From a virus: a stretch of DNA of 64,000 bases. The translations under genes and the position numbers were made by a program. Shown one piece after another: positions 1,306-62,953 of the stretch. The notes under the pieces are model-generated. The model was not told the DNA's origin, did not search any database, and saw only the letters and a program-made list of their open reading frames with translations. Where the stretch lies: IMG/VR virus record IMGVR_UViG_3300047478_000258, positions 6,566 to 70,565 of that record, one strand, 5' to 3'. How positions within the stretch are numbered: position 1 is the first letter of the stretch; each line of letters opens with the position of its first letter.

Positions 1306-1319
1306 TGAAAACGTTTTCA
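1306..1319. repeat. TGAAAACGTTTTCA palindrome 1
   Basis: Contains upstream stop; abuts dnaB RBS. Confidence 0.95.
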
Positions 1320-1802
1320 TATTTTTACTCTTCGCATACTCTCAGTTGGAGCAGGAATAGATAACTGTAATATCCCTCTGGAAAAATCAGATATAAGGTC
1401 TTTCCCATATACGTTTGTAAGACTCATATCACTTTGGGCTCCTATTACTACTTTGCACCCTGCTCTTACTAATTTATGAACTGTTGATTTAAGGAAGGAT
1501 ACTACAAATGGGTTGGACGGCATATCATAACAGGAAAAATATGTATTCTTCTGTGGGATTACTTTCTTTGTATCCACTATATCTGGGGTATACTCATAAC
1601 AAAACCCAAATTTTAGTGCCAATTCTCCTACAAATCTATCCTTTTCCAGATTATTTGGTCCCAATACTATCAAAATCTTTGCATTTTCCAGCAGACTTTC
1701 CAGCTTCACTACCTTTTCTTCCTCTGCCCAAGCTGATAAGTCTGTCTCTACAACGCCTCTTGGATAACCGAACTTCTCCAGTATTCCCTGTACTTGTGTC
1801 AT
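1317..1802 (-). CDS. Degenerate DnaC/IstB-like helicase-loader ATPase
   Basis: Directly upstream of DnaB; eroded P-loop IVLGPNNLEKD. Confidence 0.45.
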   Translation of the reverse strand: MTQVQGILEKFGYPRGVVETDLSAWAEEEKVVKLESLLENAKILIVLGPNNLEKDRFVGELALKFGFCYEYTPDIVDTKKVIPQKNTYFSCYDMPSNPFVVSFLKSTVHKLVRAGCKVVIGAQSDMSLTNVYGKDLISDFSRGILQLSIPAPTESMRRVKI

Positions 1803-1885
1803 TCTCTCTCCTTTCTGTATTTCTACTACATTTTATACACGCTTTGCCATGACCACTATTGCATCTGGCTTCTCCCCATTCACAT

Positions 1886-2236
1886 TTAGAGTTGTTCAAT
1901 AGTATCATCTTCCCGTACCTCCTCTAAGTTAAACGATTCTTTGTAAACTCTCGGAAATAAAGATAAATCAGGTATCTTCCTATTATGCATTTTTACATAG
2001 GAAAATGTCTGCCAACCTTGGATTACTCTCTCTACCATAAGATGGATATCCAATCCGTTAGCTCTGCAGATCTTCTTTACTATTGCAATATCTTTAGAAG
2101 AGGGAGGAACCCACTTGGAATATCCATAGTCTTTACAGAGCTCTATAAATTTGATAGCAATGGCATTTACTGTTACTACATCTGCTTTGATCTTACTGCG
2201 GTATAACCTTACTAAGTTATCTGGTATCACTTCCAT
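1886..2236 (-). CDS. Hypothetical protein in replication operon
   Basis: 116-aa ORF with AGGAGG RBS. Confidence 0.65.
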   Translation of the reverse strand: MEVIPDNLVRLYRSKIKADVVTVNAIAIKFIELCKDYGYSKWVPPSSKDIAIVKKICRANGLDIHLMVERVIQGWQTFSYVKMHNRKIPDLSLFPRVYKESFNLEEVREDDTIEQL

Positions 2237-2245
2237 CTCTCCTCC

Positions 2246-2274
2246 TTGACTTGTTAATAGTTAGTTGATAGTAT
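2246..2274 (+). promoter_or_regulatory. Possible antisense sigma70 promoter TTGACT-17-TAGTAT
   Basis: Same -35 hexamer and spacing as promoters at 14499, 18463 and 31960; overlaps a minus-strand RBS so may be chance. Confidence 0.3.
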
Positions 2275-2292
2275 ACATATATCTCTCTCCTT

Positions 2293-2893: not shown

Positions 2894-2907
2894 TGAAAAC
2901 GTTTTCA
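2894..2907. repeat. TGAAAACGTTTTCA palindrome 2
   Basis: Intergenic, inside TGCCCC...GGGGCA inverted repeat. Confidence 0.95.
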
Positions 2908-3569: not shown

Positions 3570-3926
3570 TTATTCTCTCCACATCTTGCACAGGTCATTT
3601 TTCTCCTTTATAATCCTTGCCAGTTCTGTAGAGACAAGCAAGGGGATTTGGTCAGTGTTGTTCTTAAAAGTTATCTGATTACATATTAATAAATCTCCTA
3701 CATCATCAAGTATTTTTTTAGCTATATCTCTTAACCTTCCAAACTCTGACCATTGAGAGAAGTCGGGGTTTTGATTTGTAATACTTTCTACATTATCCCA
3801 ATGAGTTTCTATTCCGCACTTATTGCAGATAGACCAATCATTCAGATTAACTTCATGCCAGCACCCGCCCTCTTCATCAAGAAGTATCTTTCCTATGCGT
3901 TCAAGTTCTGGTGTCATGTATTTCAC
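3570..3926 (-). CDS. Hypothetical accessory protein (Cys/His N-terminus)
   Basis: 118-aa ORF in micro-gene cluster. Confidence 0.6.
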   Translation of the reverse strand: MKYMTPELERIGKILLDEEGGCWHEVNLNDWSICNKCGIETHWDNVESITNQNPDFSQWSEFGRLRDIAKKILDDVGDLLICNQITFKNNTDQIPLLVSTELARIIKEKNDLCKMWRE

Positions 3927-4162
3927 CCCATTTCTTTTCCACGTAATCCCATGCCCATGATTGAGCAGGAGGTAGTCTATGCAACTTACAATAATTCATC
4001 TTCCATAGCCATTTCTCAAGTTCTGGTGTCAACATTAATCCTCCTTTCTCTTTTTCATGCTCATATCCTTGAAATACTCGGTATATAGCTTGAAATTAAG
4101 ACCAAGAACTATCATGTTAGCGATAAGAAAAAGTATATTAGATAGTATTTCCAATTCTCTTG

Positions 4163-4411
4163 TCATCTCAATCCCATGTTTCTTACTATTGCCTTGGCAA
4201 TGGTGATTGGAATATCGCTTTGAATCTGAGCTTTTGGATTTTCTTTTTGCCATGCTTCAAACTCTGCATCACGACAGGCTTTTACTGGTCTAATTTTAAC
4301 TCCATTTCTACGTTTAGTAGAAAGCGGGCAAATAAGCTTTCCATAAAGAACTCTACTTAAATCGCACTCCCAACATTCTTTATCAGGAACTTCTACTATT
4401 ATCTTTCTCAT
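4163..4411 (-). CDS. Cys-rich hypothetical protein
   Basis: MRKIIVEV start after AGGAGG; CWEC...C...C. Confidence 0.55.
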   Translation of the reverse strand: MRKIIVEVPDKECWECDLSRVLYGKLICPLSTKRRNGVKIRPVKACRDAEFEAWQKENPKAQIQSDIPITIAKAIVRNMGLR

Positions 4412-6600: not shown

Positions 6601-6774
6601 ACATTTTATACAGAAACTACTGGTAAAAAACCTATTATGAGACTTATAAATTAGATCATCTTTGTCTGTCTGATTATGCTCATAATAAATAAAAAGACCA
6701 AGAATTCCTACCAATATTCCTGATAAGAATATAGATAGGAAGAATATAGCTACTGAAAACGTTTTCAGTGCCAT
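6592..6774 (-). CDS. Small membrane protein with C-terminal CxxCH
   Basis: N-terminal TM helix; ends CIKCHK. Confidence 0.5.
   Translation of the reverse strand: MALKTFSVAIFFLSIFLSGILVGILGLFIYYEHNQTDKDDLIYKSHNRFFTSSFCIKCHK
6754..6767. repeat. TGAAAACGTTTTCA palindrome 3
   Basis: Intragenic (LKTFS). Confidence 0.95.
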
Positions 6775-9017: not shown

Positions 9018-9031
9018 TGAAAACGTTTTCA
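9018..9031. repeat. TGAAAACGTTTTCA palindrome 4
   Basis: Contains MazG stop; upstream of AAA gene. Confidence 0.95.
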
Positions 9032-9542: not shown

Positions 9543-10091
9543 TTAGCTGACAACTTCATCAAGTCTATCTCCAGATCCAGCAAGCTCCCCTTCTCTGCAT
9601 TCAGCATCGGTGCTTTCGGGTGTATCATCTCTATCCTCCACTGTTAGATTGTTATTAAGAACATCTGTTATGCTCTCTGCATACTTGGTAATAATAGGAG
9701 CACATAGACCCACTATCTTATTGCCTACTTTTACTACTATTGCAGCAGCTTCCCTGGTATAAAACTGGCATTTAGGAAAGAGCTCTTTGAACAATAAGTA
9801 ATACTCTTTCCTGATCTTTACATCACTATTGACAAACCTAAATGTATCCACATGGCTATTACCTACCATATGACCAGATTCTACTACTTTAATAGACTTC
9901 TTAAGGTTTTCTGTATCACACCCTATAAGCTCATCTATTACAACTGGGCATTCTTCTGCAGGAACATCAATATCTGCCAACCAATCAGGCATACCACCAT
10001 AGACCAAGAAGTATCTTGATCCCCAGCAGTTCTTGCCCTTAACTTTAGTGAAAACGTTTTCACCTACCTGAAACAGGTTCTTCCTTTCCAT
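9543..10091 (-). CDS. Hypothetical protein
   Basis: 182-aa ORF with AAGGAG RBS. Confidence 0.65.
   Translation of the reverse strand: MERKNLFQVGENVFTKVKGKNCWGSRYFLVYGGMPDWLADIDVPAEECPVVIDELIGCDTENLKKSIKVVESGHMVGNSHVDTFRFVNSDVKIRKEYYLLFKELFPKCQFYTREAAAIVVKVGNKIVGLCAPIITKYAESITDVLNNNLTVEDRDDTPESTDAECREGELAGSGDRLDEVVS
10049..10062. repeat. TGAAAACGTTTTCA palindrome 5
   Basis: Intragenic (ENVF). Confidence 0.95.
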
Positions 10092-12042: not shown

Positions 12043-12696
12043 TTAAGGAGAAGGAAGAATACCTTTATCCTTATTTTCATAGGTTGATAAAAAGTCCAGC
12101 ATTATGAATTCCAGGCACTGCCCTGGTAATGCTGAACCACCCAGCATGATTTGAGCCTCACGCATTGCATGATCGTATGACTGCTTCTGCTCATCTATCA
12201 GCTTAATAGTAATACTATGAGTAGTAACAGCTCTTCCACCTACTACATCTACTCTATTCTTGGCAACAATCTCTTTAAGTTCAGAGACTGTCTTGCTCTT
12301 AGCATCTGCAAGAATAAGATTGAGCTTATCAGATGTAATTCCATCTTCTGTAAGCAAAGGCATGACAGTCTTGAACTTAGTCCAATCAGTAATGCCCTCA
12401 ATCTGCTCTGTTGTAATGCCCAAGCTAACAATAGTCTTACCTATTGCAACCTTATGACGCATATTACGATACTCTAAGCCAAGTTCCTCTTTGGCATAGT
12501 GCTCCATAGATTCATAATCATACTCTTCATAGAGCCTTCCTGACTCAATAAGATAGAGGTTCTTATATACGATAAACCAATTCTTATTGATAGACTCTAT
12601 ACAGTCTTTGGTTTCATCTCTGATATCCTTCTCTTCAGTCTTAAAGATTCTCTTTGTCGTTGCTGCCTGTATTGTTCCTTGTTGTAATCTAGCCAT
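12043..12696 (-). CDS. DUF3102-like helical putative DNA-binding protein
   Basis: LYLI....LY...Y.SM..Y...ELG..YR pattern. Confidence 0.5.
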   Translation of the reverse strand: MARLQQGTIQAATTKRIFKTEEKDIRDETKDCIESINKNWFIVYKNLYLIESGRLYEEYDYESMEHYAKEELGLEYRNMRHKVAIGKTIVSLGITTEQIEGITDWTKFKTVMPLLTEDGITSDKLNLILADAKSKTVSELKEIVAKNRVDVVGGRAVTTHSITIKLIDEQKQSYDHAMREAQIMLGGSALPGQCLEFIMLDFLSTYENKDKGILPSP

Positions 12697-13870: not shown

Positions 13871-13884
13871 TGAAAACGTTTTCA
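13871..13884. repeat. TGAAAACGTTTTCA palindrome 6
   Basis: Between stop and GGAGGAGG RBS. Confidence 0.95.
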
Positions 13885-16680: not shown

Positions 16681-16694
16681 TGAAAACGTTTTCA
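16681..16694. repeat. TGAAAACGTTTTCA palindrome 7
   Basis: Intergenic, paired with copy 8. Confidence 0.95.
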
Positions 16695-16785: not shown

Positions 16786-16799
16786 TGAAAACGTTTTCA
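16786..16799. repeat. TGAAAACGTTTTCA palindrome 8
   Basis: Intergenic. Confidence 0.95.
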
Positions 16800-17644: not shown

Positions 17645-17658
17645 TGAAAACGTTTTCA
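17645..17658. repeat. TGAAAACGTTTTCA palindrome 9
   Basis: Near the centre of imperfect inverted repeat 17617-17681. Confidence 0.95.
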
Positions 17659-19918: not shown

Positions 19919-19932
19919 TGAAAACGTTTTCA
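19919..19932. repeat. TGAAAACGTTTTCA palindrome 10
   Basis: Immediately after a stop; upstream of the Acb2/Tad1-like gene. Confidence 0.95.
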
Positions 19933-24264: not shown

Positions 24265-24518
24265 AGCAGCCATCTAAAGATGTACTGGAATCAATAGCAA
24301 ATCTCAAAGCTCTCCAATTACCTGACTTTGATAAGTTATATAGTTGGGTAGTAGACAGCTACAATGACATAGAGAAAATTACTTTAGAGACCCCAAAAGC
24401 TGAAAACGTTTTCACTCACTGGGTAGCCCTCGGTAATCTTCAAGTTCTCAAGACAATTCTTGACACGATAGATGGAGTAGAAGACAAGCTCATGAGATTA
24501 AAAGTAGGTAATAGATAA
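24261..24518 (+). CDS. Small post-portal protein
   Basis: 85-aa ORF coupled to portal. Confidence 0.7.
   Translation: MKQPSKDVLESIANLKALQLPDFDKLYSWVVDSYNDIEKITLETPKAENVFTHWVALGNLQVLKTILDTIDGVEDKLMRLKVGNR
24401..24414. repeat. TGAAAACGTTTTCA palindrome 11
   Basis: Intragenic (ENVF). Confidence 0.95.
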
Positions 24519-27455: not shown

Positions 27456-27648
27456 GACAGTATATGTTCCTTGTATAGTTCCAGAGACTCCTCCTGTTCC
27501 ACAGATGTATGTAGCTCAGTGGGTTAATTTAGATGGAAGATATTGTTTCGCAGATACAGAGAGCTTCAAGGCTCTCATTACCAACATAAAAGAGATGAGA
27601 AGATATCAGGATGAGATGAGAACTATCCTTGAGAACCTTAAAAAGTGA
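27394..27648 (+). CDS. o-spanin (Rz1-like lipoprotein)
   Basis: Lipobox LISC, Pro-rich segment. Confidence 0.75.
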   Translation: MRHLLMILFCLSLISCSLATKTVYVPCIVPETPPVPQMYVAQWVNLDGRYCFADTESFKALITNIKEMRRYQDEMRTILENLKK

Positions 27649-27659
27649 AAACGTTTTCA
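27646..27659. repeat. TGAAAACGTTTTCA palindrome 12
   Basis: Begins with o-spanin stop; precedes fibre RBS. Confidence 0.95.
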
Positions 27660-35594: not shown

Positions 35595-35912
35595 ATGCAA
35601 AGAATTAAGAATAAGTATCTTTTTACAGATACTGTGCAACATTTACACTCTACTCTTATGGAGAATGGCTTTGTAAGGAGTATTGTATACATCCTTCCTA
35701 ACCTAACTACAGCAGTATCTGGTGTTCTTACTGTCTATGACGAGGATGGTAACTTGATTTATACCTCTGGGACTATAAATGAGAATACTTCCACTCTAGT
35801 ATCAAGTTTAGCTATCCCAATAGGGGTTAATTATACAACTACTTTTACTCTGAATGCAGCATCAGGAGCATCAGATACAGTTACTATCAATATGTATGTA
35901 GAACAGGTCTGA
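35595..35912 (+). CDS. Hypothetical virion protein
   Basis: 105-aa ORF; stop lies within the palindrome. Confidence 0.65.
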   Translation: MQRIKNKYLFTDTVQHLHSTLMENGFVRSIVYILPNLTTAVSGVLTVYDEDGNLIYTSGTINENTSTLVSSLAIPIGVNYTTTFTLNAASGASDTVTINMYVEQV

Positions 35913-35923
35913 AAACGTTTTCA
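35910..35923. repeat. TGAAAACGTTTTCA palindrome 14
   Basis: Begins with stop; precedes adaptor RBS. Confidence 0.95.
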
Positions 35924-43934: not shown

Positions 43935-43948
43935 TGAAAACGTTTTCA
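43935..43948. repeat. TGAAAACGTTTTCA palindrome 15
   Basis: Between TAA and GGAGGT RBS. Confidence 0.95.
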
Positions 43949-43960: not shown

Positions 43961-44536
43961 ATGGGATTAGGCAATAGTGGGTGGGAGAGCCCAGAACAAG
44001 CTGATTATAATGCTACCTCTGGGATTTTAACTAATAATGACAGAGCATTAGCTCCCACTTCAGCTATCCCTACTACTGAAGCTACTCCTCCTATATACAG
44101 AAATAGTGCATTAGGAGGAACTTTAAATGGAGCTATTCCTCCATTAGCACAAGATCCAAATAGTACAGGGAATACTCCCCCAGGAGATACAAGATCCTCT
44201 GCAATTTCCCCTACTACTCAAACTTCTTTTACTGATTCTGACCTATCTAAGTATGGAGATAAACCAGTAGAGGATACTGATCCTAATGCAAGAAACTGGG
44301 TTGGACCCTCTGGTAATGATGTATGGAAAGGATCTACGGCTGCTATCCCTACTGCTACCCCGCAGTTTATGGCTAATAATTTTAGCAATACTACTACAGC
44401 TACTGTTCCTAATAACTTTAATCCAGTAACAGCTCCTGATTTAGCTAAGGCAGAAGATACCAGAGTAGGCTATATGGGTAATTTATTAAGCCAACTTAGA
44501 AAAAATGTTTTAAATAAAGAGTATAAAGTAAAGTGA
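43961..44536 (+). CDS. Disordered P/T/N-rich protein (putative ejection protein)
   Basis: Flanked on both sides by the palindrome; GGAGGT RBS. Confidence 0.65.
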   Translation: MGLGNSGWESPEQADYNATSGILTNNDRALAPTSAIPTTEATPPIYRNSALGGTLNGAIPPLAQDPNSTGNTPPGDTRSSAISPTTQTSFTDSDLSKYGDKPVEDTDPNARNWVGPSGNDVWKGSTAAIPTATPQFMANNFSNTTTATVPNNFNPVTAPDLAKAEDTRVGYMGNLLSQLRKNVLNKEYKVK

Positions 44537-44547
44537 AAACGTTTTCA
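44534..44547. repeat. TGAAAACGTTTTCA palindrome 16
   Basis: Begins with stop; precedes RBS. Confidence 0.95.
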
Positions 44548-46547: not shown

Positions 46548-49500
46548 ATGTATAGTATAGAGAAAGCAAGAGCAGCTGGGGAAAGTGATGACTACATAGC
46601 TAACTATCTTATAGAAAAGAATAAGATAGATCCAACTTCTTTACAAGGTATACCACAAGAGAAACTTCTAGACCATCTTGTAGGGGAAGATTCCCGTATT
46701 AACTATCCTATGAATGGTGCTCAGGCTATTAATACCAGACTTGAGCAGAAGAATCAGGAACTATACCCTGAAAAGTATACTGCTATTCCAGTTCCTTTTC
46801 AGGATACTCCTATTATGATGCCCAAGACTGAGGCTCAGAATGCTGAGTATGCTAAACAGAAAGCACTATATGATAAGTCTCCTAATATGCCAGGAATTGG
46901 TGGTGCTTTATGGGAAGCAGGAGCACAACCTATTAAGGGTGCTCTTAACTTACCAAAAAGACTTGTAGGGTCTAATCTTGAAGCAGCAGGAACTGCTATT
47001 GGTGGAGATACTGCAGTAGGTGGATTCTTACAAGAAGCTGGGAAAGCATGGTCTGGATTCTCTGATAAAGCCCAGGAATTTGCTCCTCCTTCACAGCAGA
47101 GTTTGGAGAGTCCTATTCGTAATACTCTTATTGGAGGAGTACAGTCTGCCTCTGAAATTCTACTTTCAGGACTTATACCTGGTGGAGCAATAGCTTATGG
47201 TGCTGGTATAGGATCAGAAGCTGGGTTAGGTCTCTATAAAGATATGGTAGCCAAAGGGAAGAGTCATGAAGAAGCCCTTTCTTATGGTGTTATTAATGGT
47301 GGAGTTCAGGGAGTATTAGAAACCTATCTGAATAAGATGACATTAGGACTGGCAAAACCTCTTACTGGACTGATAGGTAAAGCTATAGTTAATGAAGGGG
47401 AACAGGCTCTTAAGAGTACTGCCAAAGAACTTATTGGAGTTTATGGCTTTAAACAATTCTTCAAGAACATTGGCAAGATGGCTATGTGGGAAGGTACTGA
47501 GGAAGTAGCACAGCAGGGAACTGAGGATATCCTTAGAAAGATAGGTATGGATGAAACTAAGACTCCAGAAGCCTATGCTCAGGATTATGCTTTGCAGTTT
47601 CTTGGTGGTGCTTTTGCTGGGTTACTTATAGGTCATGCTTCTCAGGGTATGAACATGGTAGCTATGAAACCCTATATAGATGCCCTGCAGAATCCTGCTA
47701 CAGGACAGGATGTTAGGCTATCTGCCAAGGATGCTATTACTCAACTGCTTACTCCTCAGAGCTTGGAAGCTGCCAAAGCTTGGGATACTTTAGCTACAAG
47801 AGCTGTTATAGCAGGAGATCCTATTCCTGTAGATACCCAGTTTGCTGCTTTTATCAATGTATACAACAATAATAGAACTACTGCTTCTGTGAATATGCTT
47901 AATCCAGAGACCCCAAGGAAGCCTCTTGGTACTCCTCCAGTAGCTGCTCCTACTCCTGCAACTCCTCCAACAGGGAATCCTCCTATTGATTTACTATCTC
48001 CTGAAGTAGCAAGGAGTAAGCAGGTAGCAGAAGGAAGAGTATTAGCTGCAGAAGAGCAGATTATGAATACCTCTGATGAAGCAAAGATAGCAGAGTTACA
48101 GAATCTGCAGGAACAAGTTGGTCAACAGCAGGTTGCTTTAGAGGAATCTGAGAAGCCTATGGCTCTTAGCAAGACTGCCTTTACCTCTAAAATAGCAGAG
48201 AGGAAAGCAAAATTGGAGTTGAAAGCTAAGGATAAAACTATAACTCCTGCTGAAAAAGGTATGCTCAATGACATGAATAGATTGTCTACAGAAGACCTTG
48301 CTAAAGCATACAATATAGAACTTTCTACTCCTACTGTTCTTAAGCCTGTAGATATGACTAACCAGAAAATAGTAGAAAGAGAGCAGGCTATTCTTGCAGA
48401 ACAGCAAAAAACAGAAACACCCTTACCTGTTCAGGAGCAAGCTCCCGAACAAAAACAGCCTACAGAAAGAGAAACTCTTATCACTGGGTTAGAGAAAATG
48501 AGTGCAGAGATAGAAGCAAAAGAGGGAAGGGCAGCAGCTTCAAGTGCTGTTTTATCTTCAAAAGAGTTCCAGCGTCTTAAACAGATAGAGAAAGAAGAAG
48601 AAGTGAAAACGTTTTCACCTGAGAGACAGCAGATAATAGCAGTAGCTTCTAAGATGCCAGAAGAGAGAGTGCGTACAGAGATAGCAAAAGAAAAGGCAAA
48701 CCTTACAGTATTGCAAGATGCTATCTCTAAATACCCAAAAGAAGACCCCAATATTGCTCCTCTCCAAAAGGAAATGGAATTAGTCCAGCATACTATTAAA
48801 GCGTATGAGGATAGACTAAACTCTCTTTCTTGGGATAGCCACCTTGAAGCTGTTACTACTCCTGCTACTGAACCAAAAGTACAGGTAAAACAGATCACAG
48901 AGAGACTGAAAGTTCTCAATGTTGCTATGGAGAATACTTCAGATAAAGAGAAAATAAGTTCCATCCGTGTGCAGATTAAGAGAGAAGCAGACAAGTTAAA
49001 GGATCTTGACCCTGATAGATATGCAAAGATAGAAGCCAATATGAACCTCATTGATAAGATGGGGGAGCTTAAAAGTGTAAGTGTTTTCAAATCAGATAAA
49101 ACAACAACTACAGAACACCCTACTATTGGTAGGTTTCTTAATGATATATCAAGAAATTCTGATAGTGTAGCAATGAAGCAATTATCAACTTACTTGCTTA
49201 AAAAGATAGAGTCCCAACCCTCTAAGCTTAATATGAAGATAGTCCATTCTTCTGTACTTGAGCATGAACCTACCAAGAGAAATATAGAAGGTAAGGGGTC
49301 TGGTGCTTATTACCACTATGATTCTGATGAGATAAGAATCCTTAGAGGCTCTATTGCTCCTCGTGAGTATAATACTGCAGTTTTACATGAGGTAGTTCAC
49401 GCTCTTACATCTAAGAAAATAAGAGCTCATATGAGTGTAGAGTCAAAATACTATAATAAGATTTTCTACACTATAACTAAAGCTGCAAGTGAAGAGATGA

Positions 49501-52500
49501 AGATAACTCATGCCTATGCTTTCAGCAATCCCAGAGAATTTCTGGCTATGATATTTACAGACTCTCAGCTTATTCAGGATCTTGAGAAATTAAAGATAGA
49601 TATAAGTTGGATAAAAGAGGCTAGTCCAAATATACATACAGCATGGGAAGCTATACTTGATGTCTTTAAGAAGATACTCGGTATGGATGTAGCCAAAGAC
49701 AGTGCTCTTGGTCATTCTCTTAAAGCTCTTGATTCCCTCTTGAAAGAGGGAGCTAAGTTACAGGAGAAGCAGAAGGGTACAGATGAGATGTTCAATCCCT
49801 TCAATGAACCTACTGAAGAGAAAGAAACTACTGAAGATGTTACTGCTCTCTTTGATATCCCTTGGGATGATCTTACTACTGCTCAAAGAGATATCTTAGC
49901 AGATATTACTGATATTGATACTCTTGCTAAGTTCCCTCTCTCCCATCTTACTGCTAACCAGACTGGTATTATCTGGAACAAGATGGATACTACTGATGAG
50001 TTTCCTAGTGAGAGTAAAGCAACAGTAAAAGTAGGACCAATGGCTGAGATTAAGACCCTTCATAATGCAGGTAAGGGTGTCTATACCATGAGGGTATATG
50101 ATGACAGCTTTAAGAAGCTGGATAAAGATCACCACTTTGGCAACCCTTTTGGGGTTACTGGAGTAACTACCTCTTCTTCTGTTCCTAATGCTGGTACTAT
50201 AAAAGAAGTAAGCCAGAGGTATTATGACTGGTTATCAGGAAAAGCTGATAAGAATATAGAACCAGATAGAAGAGTTTGGATTAATAAAGTTATAGATATG
50301 GGCTTACTTGATGGAAAGAATCTCCTTTACTTCCAGCAGACTGAAATTAATCATGCTAAGATGCTGGCTAAGTATATAAATGAGAGAAGTATTAAAGAAA
50401 CTCTTGCTCCTTGGGAAGAGCAGAAAAAAGAAGTGAAAACGTTTTCAGATATCGTTGCAGGTACTCATAGGAATGTTAAGATTATAGAGTCTCCTATAAC
50501 AGCTTCTATGGCTGCTCTACTCCCAGATGCCAGATTTGGTTACTGGGCTAAAGATGGGGATTCTCCTATAACTCTGCCTACTTATGAAGAAATGAATAAG
50601 AAGACTAAGAAAATGGAGATAAAGCTTAAAGGATGGGAAACTCCAAGAATAGCTTCAAATGCCATCTCCCTTCCCATTAAAAAATCAATGGGCTCTTTCT
50701 ATACTGATGCTGAATTCTTAGGATCTAATAAACCTGAGAGCACATATAAGAAAGTAGTAATGGAAGAGACTACAGTAAAGGGAGTTACAAGAGCTAAGGT
50801 AACCAATATAGTCTCCCCAAAAACTTCTAATATAAGGATAAAACTGGACCAGCAGTTTGATACTCTTGAATCCTATGCCAGATCTGGTATAAGAGTAGTT
50901 CTTAGTGCACTGGATTTGACGGAAATATCTGCTCATTCCCCAGCTTTGGCTTCTTATCTGAAAGAAAGAGTAGCTAAGTTAGGTGCTATTAAGACTAATG
51001 AACAGAGCAAGAGGGATGTAGAAGTAGTAAAGAAGACTACTGTTCCTGCTGCTTCTCAAATATTGGATAAGAGAACAAAATATAAGGGCAACATCTCCAG
51101 GGAAAATCTCAAGAAGATGCAGGAAACTACTATCAAGCTGATAGCAGATATAAAAGAGGGCTTTACTCCTGAACGGGTAGCTGAACTAAAAACTTTCCAT
51201 AAGATGAAAGAGAAGGATCAGGTAAAGTACTTAAGAGAACTGAACAAGGAGACCAGAAACCAGATTACAGAAAGGATAGACCTAACCAATCTCTATGCAG
51301 ATACTATCCTGAGATTTGGGATAAAGGAAGGTAAGATATATAAGAGCTCTCTTCCTTATAAAATAAGTGCCAGGATAGTTGCAGCATACAATGATTACCA
51401 TGCTGACCTTGATAGTATTCCTTCTATGCTTAGGTCTATTGCAGTCAGCAATAATGAGTATGGAAAACACTATATCCCTACAGCTACAGGAGTTAGCACT
51501 TTCATAGAGAAGACAACTCCATTGATAGACCAAATATTCTCCAGTAAACATTGGGATACTACTACTGCCAAGACTGCTTCCCTTATGGCAATAGAGTCTT
51601 ACTTTGAAGGAAACCCTATGTCTTATGAGGACATAGTAGCGAAGATAACTAAATATGGAACTGAGTTCTCTACTATGTCCAGAAATCTTTGGAATGACCC
51701 AGAGTTTCAGAATGTCTTTTCTTTCCAAGGATATGACGTTCCTGTTCCTCCTTGGACTATGGATTCTGAAAATTTACTCCTATCTTTTGATAAGTTTGTT
51801 ACCCATATGGTAGATAAGTATGGGTTAGATCCTGCAGATGTAGTTAATTCCAATAAAATGCTGGAGTTATTCTTCGGAGGGTTCATTCATAATAGAGTAA
51901 AAGAGGAATGGAAGGATTCTAAAGGGAAGAAACACACTGTATATCATGACCAATCTATCATAAAAGAGGACATAGTAACAGAAGAAGTAGCCCATATTAA
52001 TGAACTGGAGTGGGTTAGATATACATTGAATAGGACTACTCCCATAATGACATGGAAAGGTGGAGAAATTAAGGAGAACTTCAAAGAGCTGGAGAACCTT
52101 CCTATTAACTTTGCACTGGGCTTAAGAGCCATGATTATATCAAGAATCAACCAGGCTAATAAAATAGATGACTCTTTATTTGAGTTCAAAGAGACAAGGG
52201 ATCTAAAGAGTAAAGCTAGAGTATTAGATAAGGATGACCAGTTAGTACCCAAATATGACAAGAGAGGTGCTATTGATGAGAAAAATATCCTCTGGGTTGA
52301 GCCAGAAACAGAGAAGGATAAGATAAATACGTCAAAGTACGCTGCCTATATCATGAAGCAGTTAGAAAAGACTGGAGATTGGCTATCTTTTGAGGACTCA
52401 TTAGGTGCAGTTTCTATCCAGGACTACCCTCTTATTATTGATTACATAACAAAGAATAATCCTGATCTCCTTCATTCTATCCTTGGTAGTGATAAACTTA

Positions 52501-55500
52501 TCTATCCCAGAGTATCTTTTGGTAAAGGGGAAAAAGGAAAGATAGAGACTCCTTATGACTTTAAACTGTGGCAGAACTCTGAGACATTAAGAAGCAACTT
52601 CAATTACCTTGTTGCTAATCTCCCTGAGTTTGTAAGGGATGGCTATACAATAGATATAGCATATTACGCTAATAAGGGTTACTTGAATGGTAGAGAGACT
52701 GTTGCTGTTAAAGATTTGGGAACTGTTCTTTTTATAAAACAAAGAGGTATAACTGTTCATACTATGCCTATGCCTTCAGATGGTAAGTATGATATTAAAA
52801 TGATGGTTCAACAACTGACTTCTTTCATGAAGAATATGCATTATATGACATCAGAAGAGGCTATTGACATCCATCTTCCTTCTATACCCAATAGGAGGGA
52901 CGATAGACCAAGTACACTTCCTAAAGTCTTTTTTAAGAAGGATCTTTCAAAGTCAGAAGATGATTATACTGCTCCTTATAGCTATATTAATGATACAGAA
53001 CTCTCTCACTTATATGATGCTTTGTTTAGTGGAGGGATTAAAGCAGAGTCATTATCAGATGAGGAACTCCAAGATCATATAACCAGAATGAGAAGTGTAT
53101 TAAAAGAAGACGTAATTTCTCAGAGAGAACTCTGGAGTAGGATAGATAAGTTAAAAGAAGCATTAGAGCAGGATAATTTAACTACTCAGGAGAAAGACCG
53201 CATTAACTCTTTGATTAAAGAGAATGAAAGTAAAGTTGAACTTTATTCTGGAGATCTTAAAGAGACTTATAACAGTCTTTTTAATGAGATAATGAAGATT
53301 AGAAGTGCCAAGTTTGAGTATAACTATGAGTCTTTTGCCTATATGGAGAAGATAGATAATGTAATGAACTATCTTAATGTCATAGAAAGGGAAAAGGCTA
53401 GATTTCTTACAGATGAGACTACCCAGAATGTATCTGATTTTGTTAAGGCTAATAAGGCAGTAGCTGTCAGTACCCAAGTAGGTCATTCTAAGAAGAATAA
53501 GGTATTAACTACAGATCAGTCTTTGTTCCAGGCTGCTATTAATAACCTGCAACTTCTGCAGAATCTAAAGAAACCTACTGCATTAGAGGTATTCAACACT
53601 ATTGTAGAGAAGGGTAAGTGGGTAGTTGAAACAAAGATAGATGGAATACAGCAGACTCTATCTATGACTAACACACTTGCAGAAGCTGCTTATGGAGAAG
53701 GGGATAAGACCATCTTAGTAGGAGCAAAGGGACTCTTCCATGACAGACCTGATATTGTCTATGCTCTTAATGAACTCAGCAGAATAGAAGCAGAGGCTCT
53801 TACTGTCTATGGTATAGATGCCCAGTTAAGCCAGCCTGGAATAGACAGGTATATAGACAGGACAATGGGTAAGTATATTAAGAGAAGTCTAGGTAGTGAC
53901 GTAGTTAGGTGGAAATCTCCTGAAAACGTTTTCAGAATAAACTCTCTTTATGGCAGGATTTATAGAGATCCTCTATCCAAGCATAGTATTAATAATGAGA
54001 GGGAAGTACTGGCTATGGCTATCTTGGCTACTATGAGAGAGAATGGCAATGAGAAAGCTACTTTAGCTGAAGCTATGGACTTGGCTTCTCTATATCAGGA
54101 AACTATCAGAGAAATAAGTAAGTCTACTCAAGGACCCGCTAATAAGTATATCATCTTTAACTTGGCTCTCAGGAAGTTCAATGAGGCTAAAGCTAATCCT
54201 CATGGAGTAGAATCTGCTGTTGTAGATAACTTAAATACCATAAGGAAAGAGTTGTCTGACCCTACATATAACCAGGAAGCAGTAAAACAGCTTGCTGATT
54301 ACTATAAGAGGACTCTCTCTAAAGAGTTGGGTATTTTAAGAATGAATGAGATTGTTCTTAAAAGCCTTACCCAGGATAACTTATACACCAAGGATATCTG
54401 GAATGCTGTAAAGACAGTAGACTCCCAAAAGTTTCTTACTGATATGGATAGGTATGCTACTGCAGATAAAGCTGTTCTTCCTAAAGAAGTAGCAGATAAG
54501 TTAGATTTAGACACTCTTTTCTTGGCTACTTCTAATGCTATTTTAGAACATATGCCTAAGTATAATACTCTCTACCTTGATTCTAAAGAAAAAGAGTATA
54601 CTTACAGAGCTGCTGCTGAGTTCGTAAGTAAGGCTGATAGTCTTGGGGCAATAAAGAAAGAGATTACAAATGCATTGCTTAATGTTGATGCTATTATTGC
54701 TAGAAAGACAGGTACTAAGAAAGACTTACAGAAAGCAGCTGTTGGGATGGTATATGCAGAAGCTCTTATGTCTGGTCAGATCTTCAGATTTGGAATGGCT
54801 AAAGAGACTGTTGATACTCTTATGACTTTTACTGACCCTATCTATGAAGAACTCAGTAAGGTAGACCCTGCTTTATATAGAGGAGAACCTTCCAAATTAA
54901 GAGCAGATATAGACATGAAGACTCTTTCTCTGCCATATACAGCTCTTTTAGACTTGTATGATTTTATACAACAGGGTTCTTTGTTCAAAGGAGTCCTTCT
55001 CAGACCTATTGATAAGATAGATTTTAAAGCTAGAAATATGTCCAAGGTCTACGATATGGCTATGGATATGTCCAAGTACGATGCTAATAATCTTACTCCT
55101 TACCATTATTTAGTAGCTGCAGTGGAAGCTGCTTATCAGAAGAATAAAGATCAGTTCAGAGCTAACATGAGAGGTCTTATTCCTGTTATTGATTATATAG
55201 GTCAGGATTTAAGGGATAAGTCTTTCATGAGAAAGAGGAAGCCTCGGAAGGATATTACAGGAAATGACCCTGCTGTTACTAAGAAACACAAGATAGATAC
55301 TGGTAAGCTAAAGGATAGTCTTCCTTATCTGACTAAGCAACAGCCTATTTTCAATCCTACTCTTATCCAGAATGAGGATGGAAGTTGGACATTTGAAACA
55401 GAGGAAGAACCAGGGGAATTACATAGAATTATTAGTCCTGAGACTCTTTACTATGATGAATTTATGGGTATGGATACTGAGTATCCTAATGTAGTTGGAA

Positions 55501-58536: not shown

Positions 58537-58550
58537 TGAAAACGTTTTCA
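58537..58550. repeat. TGAAAACGTTTTCA palindrome 20
   Basis: Abuts terminator at convergent junction. Confidence 0.95.
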
Positions 58551-61275: not shown

Positions 61276-61576
61276 TTTTCTCTCCTCCTAGGACGCTAAT
61301 GAAATCTTTCCTTCTAATCATGATGATATCATTATCGCCTTTTAGTCCTGTTTGGTGGACTACGACCATAGGTATTTTTTTACGTCTATTGTTACGATCA
61401 CACTGCTCAAACCACTTGATTCCTACGAACTTCTTTACTGACTTGGCTTCTATTGAATAGATATGATGGAATACATCCTCACCACCTAATACTCCAGTTC
61501 TCATCCCTTCAAGAGCTTCAGCTGTCCTTCTTTCATGCATCTTCCCTCTATTTCGATTTCGTCTTTGTAAAGTCAT
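61073..61576 (-). CDS. PD-(D/E)XK Holliday-junction resolvase-like nuclease
   Basis: RGK.HER..A...D....SIEAK...W.EQ...P.VV. Confidence 0.65.
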   Translation of the reverse strand: MTLQRRNRNRGKMHERRTAEALEGMRTGVLGGEDVFHHIYSIEAKSVKKFVGIKWFEQCDRNNRRKKIPMVVVHQTGLKGDNDIIMIRRKDFISVLGGEKNGKKGDLQGLLVVQDVGSPLPEGEEHGKQLTDSRSEPSEGGGINSTPVPREEWETAQFGDDLSGLIS

Positions 61577-61802
61577 CTATTGGGATTCTCCTTCCTTTAG
61601 TAGTTCCCATAGGAATTTCTCTATACTCTCTTGCTCTTACCTTACTCATGGTATATACATATGGATATAGTAATTCTCCTAACTTAGTCTTATAGGTACA
61701 AGTAACTATAATATCTCCTTCTCCTTCCAATTTGTAGTTAGCTATACCAAAAGATATTCCTCCTGCCCATAAAGGTTCTTTTTGGATATGTCTTGTACTC
61801 AT
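61548..61802 (-). CDS. Hypothetical protein
   Basis: 84-aa ORF, AGGAGG RBS. Confidence 0.65.
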   Translation of the reverse strand: MSTRHIQKEPLWAGGISFGIANYKLEGEGDIIVTCTYKTKLGELLYPYVYTMSKVRAREYREIPMGTTKGRRIPIDDFTKTKSK

Positions 61803-62032
61803 TTCTCCTCCTTTGTAAAGTCATATTTCTCCTTACTTAGTACAGCTACGTGTTTTTCTACTTCTTCTTCTGGAATAATATCATCAGGCTTATAAGGAGT
61901 AATTGCATTTAAAAGTCCCATACTCCTATTTTCTCTAATATTATCATAGTCTATAAGGTAGATATTCATATTAGTAGTAGCTCTAATAGAAGTAACTACC
62001 CCACCACTCACTGTAACAATTACAGATTCCAT
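61799..62032 (-). CDS. Hypothetical protein
   Basis: VxVxGGVV...IDYDN pattern. Confidence 0.6.
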   Translation of the reverse strand: MESVIVTVSGGVVTSIRATTNMNIYLIDYDNIRENRSMGLLNAITPYKPDDIIPEEEVEKHVAVLSKEKYDFTKEEK

Positions 62033-62033
62033 T

Positions 62034-62219
62034 TTACTTAATTCCCCCTATTGCATTAATCTTTTCATCTAAAGACATCCCTTTAAAATTACTACCAGGT
62101 ACTTTATTCTTCTTTTTCCACTGCTCAAAGTAGTTTTTAGCATACCTACGTAATACTCTCCTAGTAATAATAAAGTTAGGATCAAATTTACCCTCTTTCT
62201 TAGCCTGATTAATTGTCAT
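62034..62219 (-). CDS. Hypothetical basic protein
   Basis: 61-aa ORF with RBS. Confidence 0.55.
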   Translation of the reverse strand: MTINQAKKEGKFDPNFIITRRVLRRYAKNYFEQWKKKNKVPGSNFKGMSLDEKINAIGGIK

Positions 62220-62953
62220 TTCTCCTCCTCAAAGCATAGATTAGCACACTTGCAGTTCTTAGCCATAAGCCCAAACTTGTTCTTGCATACTCTCTTAGGC
62301 ATAGTTCCCTTTGCTGAAAACGTTTTCACTTCCTTAAGCTTTCTCTCCAGATCCTTAATGAAATCCTGGTTGTCAGCATAAGATACTTCAAATACCTTAA
62401 ACGGGCTCTGAGAATGTGCTTTAGAGACATAAATAACATACCCTTTCTCTACGTTCATTTTGGTTTTCATCTCTTTAGCCATCCACATATAGATAATTAA
62501 CTGTAATATATGGATAAGAAGAGGTTCAGTAAGGTTCTTGAACTCTTCCCCAGAGATACTCTTTACTTCTGCTATGAAATACTCATCATCCAGCTTAAGT
62601 ATAAGATCACACGTTCCCATTATCTTTATCTTATACTTCTTTACTTCCAGCCTTACTTCCTTAGCCCTTAGTATCTTCTCTAATGCCTTACCTGTTATTT
62701 CATGAATAGCATGTCCTATCTGAAAGGTAAGAGCAAGACCAGGATACATATCCATAGGATGGTTATAGCCAAGATCACCCTTGACCAGTATGGCATATTC
62801 TCTGGGGCAAAATCCCTTACTAAGAGAAGATGCATGGATAGAATTGCCATGTCTGCCTTTTGTCATATCCATAATACCCTTCCTAAGAGCATTACGGATA
62901 AGACCTACGTTATCTACCTGCTCAAATTCAGAGTCTAGGATAAATTCTGTCAT
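62216..62953 (-). CDS. Cas4-like PD-(D/E)XK exonuclease
   Basis: HASSL...CPR, G..IHE, GTCD..EVKS, QLIIY, C-terminal Cys cluster. Confidence 0.8.
   Translation of the reverse strand: MTEFILDSEFEQVDNVGLIRNALRKGIMDMTKGRHGNSIHASSLSKGFCPREYAILVKGDLGYNHPMDMYPGLALTFQIGHAIHEITGKALEKILRAKEVRLEVKKYKIKIMGTCDLILKLDDEYFIAEVKSISGEEFKNLTEPLLIHILQLIIYMWMAKEMKTKMNVEKGYVIYVSKAHSQSPFKVFEVSYADNQDFIKDLERKLKEVKTFSAKGTMPKRVCKNKFGLMAKNCKCANLCFEEEK
62315..62328. repeat. TGAAAACGTTTTCA palindrome 21
   Basis: Inside Cas4-like gene (VKTFS). Confidence 0.95.

What the first reader, a model, noticed from the sequence alone, without database searches (positions are those of the whole stretch)
1306..62328. Genome-wide array of at least 21 perfect TGAAAACGTTTTCA palindromes: candidate stoperator-like or DNA-handling system
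Seen: exact copies start at 1306, 2894, 6754, 9018, 10049, 13871, 16681, 16786, 17645, 19919, 24401, 27646, 32042, 35910, 43935, 44534, 48604, 50434, 53921, 58537 and 62315, roughly one per 3 kb across early, late and replication modules. A rough base-composition estimate gives far below one chance copy in 64 kb. Fourteen are intergenic or at junctions. In five the terminal TGA is the stop codon (1306, 9018, 27646, 35910, 44534), and several sit directly against the next RBS. Seven are inside genes in different frames (KTFS or ENVF), three of them in the 12-kb giant ORF, so selection acts on the nucleic acid rather than the peptide. The central CG is kept in a CpG-poor genome. Established: the motif fits LacI/GalR-family operator geometry (CcpA cre TGWAANCGNTNWCA). 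Many repressor sites at gene junctions recalls mycobacteriophage L5 stoperators, which however are asymmetric. Inference: either a dimeric protein coats the genome to silence it by roadblock, or the sites serve partition, condensation or ejection (parS/matS-like), or they couple the phage to a host LacI-family metabolic regulator.
Basis: partly seen in the sequence, partly recalled or inferred. Interest (0 to 1): 0.92.

Follow-up and report, generated by a model that had tools for sequence, protein, structure and literature searches.

The report
Dispersed private palindrome sites in phage
This freshwater phage carries about 25 evenly spread copies of one 14-base mirror-symmetric DNA word, its relatives each carry their own version, and the sites most likely dock a paired DNA-binding protein that the phage encodes among its DNA-replication genes.

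Summary
All 21 exact TGAAAACGTTTTCA copies are present (25 in the whole 70.5-kb virus record), none is expected by chance, and no copy has 1-2 mismatches.

It is not a CcpA/LacI operator set and not a stoperator array. Phages sharing this phage's replication-recombination gene module each carry their own 14-bp word of the form TGNAA-N4-TTNCA, about one per 3 kb and more evenly spaced than chance. They include five cultured phages of Pseudomonas, Aeromonas, Vibrio, Rhodobacter and Rhizobium.

The sites go with one conserved helical protein (window 12043-12696, minus strand), found in 17 of 17 palindrome-bearing genomes. Its model weakly resembles ParB/KorB DNA-binding domains, and a symmetric homodimer is supported by modelling. 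The residue after a conserved Tyr-Arg is Lys/Arg in 18 of 18 genomes with TGCAA/TGCAC arms and non-basic in 10 of 10 with TGAAA/TTAAA arms. These represent only two independent switches.

The function is inferred: genome-wide landmarks for organising phage DNA or loading its machinery, or KorB-like silencing.

This scan has reported similar private dispersed palindromes in other phages. The closest published analogue is the unexplained 17-bp repeat of Cluster O mycobacteriophages.

The parts
1306..1319 (.). palindrome copy 1; its last 3 bases are the stop codon of the minus-strand ORF 1317-1802; sits just upstream of the RBS of the DnaB-like helicase gene (14-1294)
2894..2907 (.). palindrome copy 2, intergenic
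6754..6767 (.). palindrome copy 3, inside or at the edge of small minus-strand ORFs
9018..9031 (.). palindrome copy 4; carries the stop codon of ORF 9029-9328; upstream of the AAA+ ATPase gene
10049..10062 (.). palindrome copy 5, inside ORF 9543-10091
13871..13884 (.). palindrome copy 6, abuts the RBS of a minus-strand gene
16681..16694 (.). palindrome copy 7, left end of a 127-bp non-coding unit
16786..16799 (.). palindrome copy 8, right end of the 127-bp unit, 105 bp from copy 7
17645..17658 (.). palindrome copy 9, intergenic, downstream of the minus-strand terminator at 17803-17824
19919..19932 (.). palindrome copy 10, intergenic, before ORF 19966-20181
24401..24414 (.). palindrome copy 11, inside ORF 24261-24518
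27646..27659 (.). palindrome copy 12; TGA is the stop of ORF 27394-27648; 14 nt before the next start codon
32042..32055 (.). palindrome copy 13, intergenic, before ORF 32094-33032
35910..35923 (.). palindrome copy 14; TGA is the stop of ORF 35595-35912
43935..43948 (.). palindrome copy 15, directly after the TAA of ORF 42642-43934 and against the next RBS
44534..44547 (.). palindrome copy 16; TGA is the stop of ORF 43961-44536
48604..48617 (.). palindrome copy 17, inside the 3980-aa ORF (reads KTFS)
50434..50447 (.). palindrome copy 18, inside the 3980-aa ORF (reads KTFS)
53921..53934 (.). palindrome copy 19, inside the 3980-aa ORF (reads ENVF)
58537..58550 (.). palindrome copy 20, in the convergent intergenic gap next to a G+C-rich hairpin
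62315..62328 (.). palindrome copy 21, inside the PD-(D/E)XK exonuclease gene 62216-62953
12043..12696 (-). candidate reader: a 217-aa all-helical protein with a helix-turn-helix (RcZahn gp66 family); modelled as a symmetric homodimer

Best explanation
The 14-bp palindromes are high-affinity docking sites on double-stranded DNA for a symmetric dimer of a phage-encoded protein. The most likely protein is the 217-aa helical helix-turn-helix protein at window 12043-12696 (minus strand). It is a core gene of the phage's T4-like replication-recombination module, alongside a gp32-like SSB, a RecA-like recombinase, DnaB, primase, a UvsW-like helicase, a Cas4-like exonuclease, resolvases and an AAA+ ATPase. 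Each lineage of this module has its own word of the form TGNAA-N4-TTNCA, so protein and sites evolve together. Shown: the sites, their conservation, their lineage-specific change, their even spacing of about 3 kb, and their association with this gene. Inferred more weakly: the function. I read the sites as genome-wide landmarks that mark and organise the phage chromosome, by compaction or by recruiting replication and recombination proteins. I do not read them as promoter operators. Any blocking of transcription at gene junctions would be a side effect or a secondary use.
For: (1) The same exact word is enriched in distantly related records whose core proteins are 25-47% identical: 13, 9, 16 and 6 copies in G002, G003, G007 and G008. 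Its only frequent variants are CG>TG/CA/TA at the centre. (2) More distant relatives, found through the SSB, carry other exact words of the same architecture. G030 has 7 TGCAAGCGCTTGCA. G032 has 21 TGCAATCGATTGCA plus 3 one-base variants. L280 has 6 TGAAAT-CA/TG-ATTTCA. G034 has 6 TGCAAT-CA/TG-ATTGCA plus one with a GG centre. (3) All five cultured phages with the module have them: SM1 30, HJ05 24, RHph_I4 50, VH2_2019 about 10 and RcZahn about 9. The same word occurs in a Rhodobacter phage and a Vibrio phage, while three gammaproteobacterial phages have three different words. This argues against a host reader. (4) Background: the generic pattern occurs at 0.018 per kb in 950 kb of phages that share the capsid protein, against 0.30-0.46 per kb in most module-bearing genomes (0.13-0.17 in VH2 and G008). 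(5) Spacing is more even than random: CV 0.59 (P=0.004) in G000, 0.55 (P=0.00025) in SM1, 0.41 in HJ05 and 0.40 in G032 (no simulation reached the last two values). (6) A profile of the 217-aa protein finds a homologue in 17 of 17 palindrome-bearing genomes. Among 77 non-redundant loci that share the AAA+ ATPase, 17 of 24 with this gene have a 5+4+5 dyad in 3 or more copies, 16 of them of the T-G/T-N-A-A/C type. Only 6 of 53 without the gene have such a dyad, and none of those is of that type (Fisher P=3e-7, not corrected for relatedness). (7) Fold: VIA-align gives ParB DNA-binding domain with parS (6s6h_B, Z 6.0, rmsd 3.5, 99 residues aligned), KorB (8qa8_A, Z 5.6, rmsd 3.7, 98; 1r71_A, Z 5.3, rmsd 3.5, 96) and Spo0J (1vz0_A, Z 5.4, rmsd 2.9, 90). 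(8) Homodimer model: score 0.68, best of 3 controls 0.00. That mark was reached by 20 of 30 proteins solved as pairs of one chain and by 1 of 23 solved as single chains. The runs agree in at least 90% of contacts and the partner's pLDDT is at least 76. (9) Covariation: the residue after the conserved Tyr-Arg at the start of the second HTH helix is Lys/Arg in 18 of 18 genomes with TGCAA/TGCAC arms and N/I/V/M/T in 10 of 10 with TGAAA/TTAAA arms. L280 (TGAAAT, Thr) is the well-supported sister of G032 (TGCAAT, Arg).
Against: The covariation rests on only 2 independent switches (both concordant; sign test p=0.5). The second correlation (Leu/Met with a pyrimidine at position 6) goes the same way in 1-2 of 3 independent pairs and does not differ in the rest. 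Within the TGAAAA group the putative recognition helix differs strongly between G000 and G002/G003/G007, although the site is identical. The fold Z scores of 5.3-6.2 lie in the range the tool calls possibly a common helical arrangement. The top row was an unrelated photosystem chain, and Foldseek found nothing at E<=0.001. No curated family reaches its threshold for this protein. Seven of 24 loci with the gene show no repeated dyad within about 20 kb, and G033 has a homologue but essentially one full site. Several lineages keep an asymmetric inner tetranucleotide in every copy (TGCAATCGCTTGCA in L326, L328, L351; TGAAAACGCTTTCA in L353). In SM1, 21 of 30 sites combine two different half-sites. 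A simple symmetric homodimer does not explain this. The association with the gene is confounded by relatedness. Nothing here measures binding, and the proposed function is inference only.
Confidence: 0.45

Rival explanations
1. Same phage-encoded reader, but its main job is global transcription control, like KorB on plasmid RK2. The bound dimers would repress promoters or block elongating RNA polymerase at gene junctions to time early and late expression.
For: In G002 an array of five sites lies 19 nt upstream of the -35 of a sigma-70-like promoter (TTGACT-17-TATATT). In G000 three copies lie in the regulatory stretch 16.6-17.7 kb. 14 of the 21 window sites are at junctions. 8 of 25 G000 sites lie within 30 nt upstream of an RBS plus start codon, against 12.9% of random positions.
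Against: Family-wide, only 75 of 236 sites are close to a start codon, against 8-25% of random positions. In the cultured phages the excess is slight: SM1 24% against 16%, HJ05 30% against 23%, RHph_I4 26% against 22%. Most sites therefore lie inside genes, far from promoters. The sites travel with the replication module, not with any transcription gene. Even spacing is not needed for promoter control. No ParB_N (CTPase) domain, which KorB uses to act at a distance, is found in G000, G002, G007 or G008.
Confidence: 0.25
2. The sites are read by another phage product, not the 217-aa protein. One option is a small, fast-evolving DNA-binding protein. Another is one of the module's nucleases or resolvases, which would make the sites recombination or replication-initiation hot spots.
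For: The module also always carries a Cas4-like PD-(D/E)XK exonuclease, resolvase-like endonucleases, a RecA-like recombinase and a small conserved protein between the helicase and RecA. The asymmetric inner tetranucleotides hint at something acting at the centre of the site. The covariation for the 217-aa protein is statistically weak.
Against: None of these proteins was tested for covariation here. No shared small HTH protein was found across lineages. Isolated half-sites are not enriched (TGAAAAC 30 and GTTTTCA 34, of which 25 each lie in full sites), so recognition of single-stranded DNA is unlikely.
Confidence: 0.17
3. The sites are cre-type operators that recruit or titrate a host LacI-family regulator such as CcpA, coupling the phage to host carbon status.
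For: The word fits TGWAANCGNTNWCA perfectly. The only paper in the library holding the literal word is on Streptococcus thermophilus galactose use (search listing only). Unrelated phage contigs G025 and G026 have degenerate cre-type sites 11-16 nt upstream of the -35 of strong promoters.
Against: 74 of 74 cre-consensus matches in six family genomes are the identical word, whereas G025 and G026 show the expected degeneracy. Relatives use other words and non-CG centres: TA in VH2, CA/TG in L280 and G034, any dinucleotide in RHph_I4. Cultured relatives infect Proteobacteria. The same word occurs in phages of Rhodobacter and Vibrio.
Confidence: 0.05
4. The word works in RNA, as a hairpin that terminates transcription, directs processing or tunes translation next to the RBS.
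For: Many G000 sites sit between a stop codon and the next RBS.
Against: The hairpin alone is worth only -1.4 to -1.5 kcal/mol, and folding is not better than shuffles (z -0.6 to -1.9 over five sites). No T-run follows. Positions 6 and 9, which would lie in the loop, are complementary in most lineages. About two thirds of the family's sites are not next to a start codon, and many lie inside ORFs.
Confidence: 0.03

Closest known systems
17-bp dyad repeat of Cluster O mycobacteriophages (5'-TGTTCGGNNNCCGAACA; 34 copies in Corndog). Cresawn et al. 2015, PMC4351075; passages read
   Same: There are dozens of copies throughout a roughly 70-kb phage genome. The inverted arms are invariant and the centre is variable. 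About one third of copies lie inside coding regions. There is no integrase or parAB. The authors predict a dimeric DNA-binding protein acting in a process other than transcription initiation, with function unknown.
   Different: The word and geometry differ (7+3+7 against 5/6+4/2+5/6). That repeat is described within one cluster of close relatives, with no lineage-specific switching and no candidate reader. A tblastn with the 217-aa protein found only RcZahn among 50,697 phage records at E<=0.01, so no homologue was detected in Cluster O phages.
KorB and its OB operators on IncP plasmid RK2 (13-bp palindrome, 12 copies on about 60 kb; recalled from memory. PDB entries 1r71 and 8qa8 were among the fold matches)
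   Same: Near-identical palindromes are dispersed over a mobile genome of similar size, some far from promoters and some inside genes. The modelled fold of the candidate reader aligns over 96-98 residues with KorB.
   Different: No ParB_N/CTPase domain is found in G000, G002, G007 or G008, and no IncC/ParA partner was seen. The site density is 2-4 times higher and the spacing is even. The gene sits in a replication-recombination module of lytic-looking phages.
ParB-parS and Noc-NBS of bacterial chromosomes (recalled from memory)
   Same: Palindromic sites of 14-16 bp are read by dimers with a helix-turn-helix. Noc sites are scattered over most of the chromosome and serve DNA organisation, not transcription.
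   Different: parS is nearly invariant across bacteria and clusters near the origin. Here each phage lineage has its own word, the sites cover the whole genome, and the N-terminal CTP-binding domain is missing.
Stoperators of Cluster A mycobacteriophages (L5 gp71; as described in the discussion of PMC4351075, and recalled)
   Same: Some 25-30 near-identical short sites for one phage protein are spread through the genome, many in short intergenic gaps.
   Different: Stoperators are asymmetric, are oriented with transcription and serve prophage silencing. These sites are symmetric, and no lysogeny genes were recognised.
CcpA cre and other LacI/GalR-family operators
   Same: A 14-bp palindrome TG-AA-CG-TT-CA with a central pyrimidine-purine step. 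The G000 word is a perfect cre.
   Different: The sites show none of the degeneracy of a cre regulon, and the family has no LacI-type reader. The centre is not CG in several relatives, and the hosts of the cultured relatives are Proteobacteria.

Membership tests
LacI/GalR-family operator (CcpA cre) | 14-bp palindrome fitting TGWAANCGNTNWCA with a central CG | tested here: met
   25 of 25 G000 sites fit
LacI/GalR-family operator (CcpA cre) | Sites of one regulon vary at the degenerate W/N positions | tested here: not met
   74 of 74 consensus matches in G000, G002, G003, G005, G007 and G008 are the identical word. The unrelated contigs G025 and G026 show 3-4 different variants each
   PF00356 six-frame search: one partial match in G000 (13 of 46 positions, 13.8 bits, cut-off 27) and none in G002, G007, G008 or G032. 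A host reader could not be tested because the host is unknown
LacI/GalR-family operator (CcpA cre) | The central CpG is required | tested here: not met
   Dominant centres are TA in VH2_2019, CA/TG in L280, G034 and HJ05, and any dinucleotide in RHph_I4
Cluster A stoperators | Asymmetric site oriented with the direction of transcription | tested here: not met
   The word is a perfect palindrome and occurs in both transcription blocks
Cluster A stoperators | Temperate phage with an immunity repressor and an integrase or parABS | tested here: inconclusive
   No integrase, repressor-type HTH or ParA family among the Pfam hits of 94 G000 proteins. In one search only a summary over 74 proteins is returned. 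Small or novel proteins could be missed
ParB-parS / KorB-OB | Palindromic site of 13-16 bp read by a dimer | tested here: met
   14-bp palindrome. Homodimer model scores 0.68 against a best control of 0.00; the mark was reached by 20 of 30 known homodimers and 1 of 23 proteins solved as single chains
   PF02195 six-frame search: no match in G000, G002, G007 or G008. The one match, in G032, lies in a different ORF (24467-24703)
ParB-parS / KorB-OB | ParB/KorB-type helical DNA-binding domain | tested here: inconclusive
   VIA-align: 6s6h_B Z 6.0 (rmsd 3.5, 99 aligned); 8qa8_A Z 5.6 (rmsd 3.7, 98); 1vz0_A Z 5.4 (rmsd 2.9, 90); 1r71_A Z 5.3 (rmsd 3.5, 96). Foldseek found nothing at E<=0.001. Sub-threshold sequence hints only: DUF3102 at E 0.08 and Borrelia family 49 at E 2.8e-4, 21 bits against a cut-off of 60
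ParB-parS / KorB-OB | Partner ParA/IncC ATPase | not tested
   No ParA family appeared among the Pfam hits listed, but no dedicated search was made
Dispersed dyad repeats of phage genomes (Cluster O type) | Tens of copies with invariant inverted arms spread over the whole genome, partly inside genes, in a phage without lysogeny genes | tested here: met
   25 copies in 70.5 kb; 7 of the 21 window copies lie inside ORFs. Compared with passages of PMC4351075
Intrinsic terminator / structured RNA | A stable hairpin, followed by a T-run for a terminator | tested here: not met
   -1.4 to -1.5 kcal/mol for the word alone, not better than shuffles, and no T-run. No Rfam family reaches its gathering score in the window

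The most novel reading that the evidence does not exclude
The palindromes and the 217-aa protein form a widespread phage chromosome-landmark system that I found in none of the library searches I ran. A ParB/KorB-like DNA-binding dimer without the CTPase domain would be planted every 3 kb or so on private 14-bp words. It would mark phage DNA as self and gather or load the phage's T4-like replication-recombination machinery, or build a compacted phage nucleoid. In many homologues the protein carries a lysine-rich N-terminal tail and an acidic C-terminal tail. The system exists in cultured phages of Pseudomonas, Aeromonas, Vibrio, Rhodobacter and Rhizobium, so it can be tested directly.
Probability: 0.3. 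Interest if true: 0.85.

Novelty: new variant of a known kind. Interest (0 to 1): 0.72.

Why it matters
Dispersed dyad repeats have been an unexplained curiosity of a few phage clusters since at least 2015. Here the feature is tied to a defined, widely distributed replication-recombination module, and it changes its word from lineage to lineage. There is a single candidate reader with a specific residue-to-base prediction. It is present in easily grown phages: SM1 and its relatives on Pseudomonas, HJ05 on Aeromonas, VH2_2019 on Vibrio, RcZahn on Rhodobacter and RHph_I4 on Rhizobium. That makes an open question directly testable: what a lytic phage does with about 30 evenly spaced private protein-binding sites. 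If the landmark reading holds, it would be a new way for a virus to organise or mark its chromosome. It would also yield a set of orthogonal protein-DNA pairs.

Tried and rejected
Nearest phages: megablast of window 20000-44000 against 50,697 phage records gave no match.

Capsid relatives: 80 loci (950 kb) closest by capsid protein hold the G000 word in only 1 locus and the generic pattern at 0.018 per kb. The capsid is therefore not the carrier of the trait.

Host inference: no tRNA and no Rfam family at gathering score. The host of G000 remains unknown. Holders of the stretch are labelled freshwater or lake-water metagenomes.

RNA evidence: no RNA holder listed, so expression and transcript ends could not be examined.

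Read laying: several 'loose ends' beside the sites turned out to be contigs from other copies of the palindrome cross-mapping. They are not junctions.

Giant ORF as a virion RNA polymerase with hairpin promoters: no Pfam or PHROG hit and no [DN]xD[GA]D motif in any of 7 giant ORFs. The idea was dropped because sites also cover late genes and relatives' giant ORFs are barely similar.

The 256-aa conserved protein next to the primase looked like a possible binder. It is a gp32-like SSB with a Cys cluster and an acidic tail ending in PF or F; RcZahn gp57 is annotated 'T4 gp32-like'.

Foldseek against the PDB for the 217-aa model gave nothing at E<=0.001. An hmmsearch of its profile against PDB sequences gave nothing below E 0.06. 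Pfam and NCBIfam gave only sub-threshold hits.

Literature: the literal words, ten 14-mers and one 12-mer in all, were searched in the full-text library. No phage paper holds them. The RcZahn paper (PMC8601537, 'find' mode only) has 0 occurrences of palindrom-, inverted repeat, repeated sequence, conserved repeat or motif in its main text. Papers on SM1, PG28 and the others were seen only as search listings.

I did not test whether sites coincide with mosaic breakpoints between relatives.

Full report
Observation. The word TGAAAACGTTTTCA occurs exactly 21 times in the window, at the coordinates given, against 0 in 100 dinucleotide-preserving shuffles. Allowing up to 2 mismatches adds nothing. 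The window is bases 6566-70565 of a 70,565-bp virus record with 25 copies. Its 127-nt 'terminal repeat' has the length of a common assembler k-mer, as I recall, and records G002, G007 and G008 show 123, 123 and 127 nt. So the genome is probably circularly permuted rather than truly repeat-ended. Fourteen window sites are at junctions and seven are inside ORFs. Five sites supply a TGA stop codon. The three sites in the 3980-aa ORF use two reading frames. The genome is strongly CpG-poor (observed/expected 0.22), yet every motif copy keeps its CpG. Contigs of four public runs hold the stretch, so it is not an artefact of one assembly, although the two best runs may be its source.

The word is older than this phage. 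A scan of IMG/VR for the exact word found other records with many copies: G002 13, G003 9, G007 16, G008 6, G005 5, G006 8, G004 6 and G001 14. Beyond one 169-bp match to G003, G000 shares no detectable nucleotide similarity with them. It does share a core of proteins at 25-47% identity. In these genomes nearly all near-variants change only the central CG, to TG, CA or TA. All 74 matches to the cre consensus in six genomes are the identical word. By contrast, two essentially unrelated phage contigs (G025, G026; only a weak primase match) show typical degenerate cre-type sites. These are clustered 11-16 nt upstream of the -35 of strong promoters. That is what use of a host LacI-type regulator looks like, and the G000 family does not look like it.

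The word changes between lineages. Relatives found through the conserved SSB-like protein (alignment A3) carry other exact 14-mers of the same build. G030 and G031 have TGCAAGCGCTTGCA. G032 has TGCAATCGATTGCA (21 exact plus 3 one-base variants in 77 kb). L280 has TGAAAT-CA/TG-ATTTCA and G034 has TGCAAT-CA/TG-ATTGCA. Further loci add TGCAATCGCTTGCA, TGAAAACGCTTTCA, TGCACACGTGTGCA, TTAAATCGATTTAA, TGCAAACGTTTGCA and TGCAAT-AA-ATTGCA.

The module also exists in cultured phages, and all five that I scanned carry such words. Pseudomonas phage SM1 has 30 sites (TGCAARCGYTTGCA). Aeromonas phage HJ05 has 24 (TGCAAC-YR-GTTGCA). Rhizobium phage RHph_I4 has 50 (TGCAAC-NN-GTTGCA). Vibrio phage VH2_2019 has about 10 and Rhodobacter phage RcZahn about 9 (TGCAAT-TA/CA-ATTGCA). 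The generic pattern occurs at 0.30-0.46 per kb in most of these genomes, lower in VH2 and G008. It occurs at 0.018 per kb in 950 kb of phages that share only the capsid protein. Composition shuffles of five of the genomes expect 0.4-2.3 matches per genome where 24-50 are seen. A Rhodobacter phage and a Vibrio phage share one word, while three gammaproteobacterial phages have three different words. This speaks for a reader carried by the phage, not by the host.

Arrangement. Sites are spaced more evenly than chance. The CV of gaps is 0.59 in G000 (P=0.004), 0.55 in SM1 (P=0.00025), and 0.41 in HJ05 and 0.40 in G032 (no simulation reached either value). The mean gap is about 3 kb. VH2 and RcZahn, with few sites, are not distinguishable from random. 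In G000, 8 of 25 sites lie within 30 nt upstream of an RBS plus start codon, against 12.9% of random positions. Over twelve genomes the figure is 75 of 236, and in the cultured phages the excess is small. The RBS adjacency is therefore a local habit, probably because compact intergenic gaps are the cheapest place for a 14-bp word. It is not the function. As RNA the word is a hairpin of about -1.5 kcal/mol, no better than shuffles. Isolated half-sites are not enriched. The unit is the double-stranded dyad. In G002 five copies form an array beside iteron-like repeats, just upstream of a sigma-70-like promoter. In G000 two copies 105 bp apart bound a non-coding unit. So some copies probably also serve local control.

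Who reads it. Pfam scans of 94 G000 proteins recognised no HTH regulator, ParB, integrase, methyltransferase or RNA polymerase. Six-frame searches with the LacI and ParB_N models were negative for the family. The proteins shared by all palindrome-bearing genomes are those of the replication-recombination module. Only two of them have no assigned function. One is a small protein between the helicase and RecA. The other is the 217-aa helical protein at window 12043-12696.

A profile of the 217-aa protein finds it in 17 of 17 palindrome genomes. Among 77 non-redundant loci that share the very widespread AAA+ ATPase, the repeated TGNAA-type dyads occur only where this gene is present. They are seen in 16 of 24 loci with the gene and 0 of 53 without it. 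For any dyad in 3 or more copies the counts are 17 of 24 against 6 of 53 (Fisher P=3e-7, uncorrected for relatedness).

Its AlphaFold model (mean pLDDT 74) is all-helical with a helix-turn-helix. Foldseek finds nothing. The exhaustive aligner places ParB, KorB and Spo0J DNA-binding domains among the top rows, aligning 90-99 residues at Z 5.3-6.0. This range needs caution. A symmetric homodimer is supported by modelling (score 0.68 against 0.00 for the best control).

In the alignment, the residue after a conserved Tyr-Arg at the start of the second HTH helix is Lys/Arg in 18 of 18 genomes with C at site position 3. It is non-basic in 10 of 10 genomes with A at that position. A Leu/Met against Phe/Tyr position tracks pyrimidine against purine at site position 6 within the TGCAA clade. 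On the tree these amount to only two and about three independent changes. All that differ are concordant, but this is far from significant. I therefore regard this protein as the probable reader, not as a shown one.

What remains odd. Several lineages keep an asymmetric inner tetranucleotide in all copies. SM1 favours sites built from two different half-sites: 21 of 30 are mixed, 7 are G/G and 1 is A/A. The putative recognition helix differs considerably between G000 and G002/G003/G007 although their word is identical. A simple symmetric reading head does not explain these points.

Function. Nothing here measures function. Four observations bear on it. The sites are inherited together with the replication-recombination module across different structural modules. 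Their spacing is even, at about 3 kb. Most sites are intragenic in the cultured relatives. Many homologues of the protein have lysine-rich N-terminal and acidic C-terminal tails. Together these make me favour a DNA-organising or loading role over promoter control. KorB-like silencing is the main rival.

Comparison with what is known. The nearest published case is the 17-bp dyad repeat of Cluster O mycobacteriophages. It has 34 copies with invariant arms, a third of them inside genes, and its function is unknown (PMC4351075, passages). KorB-OB of plasmid RK2 is the closest mechanistic model, and ParB-parS/Noc and stoperators are more distant. I found no paper in the library that holds any of these words in a phage context. 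The RcZahn paper does not mention repeats.

This report adds three things: the link to a defined module, a candidate reader with a residue-to-base prediction, and cultured members of the family.

Noticed in passing
window 46548-58490 (+): A 3980-aa ORF at the end of the late operon has no Pfam or PHROG hit. Relatives have ORFs of 1759-2962 aa at the same place. Those are similar to one another, but the G000 ORF matches one of them (G002) over only 177 residues (E 3.5e-4).
   Followed up: partly
window 16677-16803: A 127-bp non-coding unit is bounded by two palindrome copies 105 bp apart, upstream of a 46-aa minus-strand ORF. In G002 the equivalent place holds five copies (one CG, one TG and three TA centres) next to iteron-like repeats and a sigma-70-like promoter.
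   Followed up: partly
window 17803-17824 and 18463-18497: A strong minus-strand intrinsic terminator (9-pair stem plus T-run). Also a rightward promoter TTGACT-17-TATGAT, with TG before the -10, whose -10 ends 5 nt before the ATG at 18497. The first rightward gene may therefore be leaderless.
   Followed up: no
G000 3698-4468 (locus L003 108-878, minus strand; outside the window): A conserved 256-aa protein with a Cys cluster and an acidic tail ending in PF or F. RcZahn's homologue is annotated T4 gp32-like, so it is the phage SSB. Many homologues of the 217-aa protein also end in acidic tails.
   Followed up: partly
L105 1500-3240 (record G026) and record G025: Essentially unrelated low-GC phage contigs carry degenerate cre-type sites 11-16 nt upstream of the -35 of a row of strong TTGACA/TATAAT promoters. 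This looks like genuine use of a host CcpA/LacI-type regulator by a phage.
   Followed up: partly
L326, L328, L351, L353; Pseudomonas phage SM1 (W02): All or nearly all copies in a genome share an asymmetric inner tetranucleotide (for example TGCAATCGCTTGCA). In SM1, 21 of 30 sites combine a TGCAAG half with a TGCAAA half, 7 are G/G and only 1 is A/A. A symmetric dimer does not explain this.
   Followed up: partly
L170 and L212 (capsid relatives): Other short words are repeated many times: a 12-mer 11 times in 17.8 kb of L170 and another 8 times in 13.2 kb of L212. They are not palindromes of the type studied here.
   Followed up: no
record G001 (137 kb): All 14 copies of the word lie between 85 and 134 kb, the part that matches G002. 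The rest of the record looks like a different genome, so the record may be a chimera or a join of two phages.
   Followed up: no
window 19966-20181 and the other small ORFs scanned: Among 74 small proteins, Pfam finds an Acb2/Tad1 hairpin domain (E 1.3e-20), an SU10-type adaptor, a T4-type lysozyme and a MazG domain. The summary does not say which ORF carries which.
   Followed up: no
whole record G000 and relatives: CpG depletion is strong and variable: observed/expected 0.22 in G000, 0.33 in G003, 0.51 in G007 and 0.6-0.7 in G002, G005 and G008. Most decayed sites in the relatives are CG>TG/CA, which would fit deamination of methylated cytosine. No methyltransferase was recognised.
   Followed up: partly
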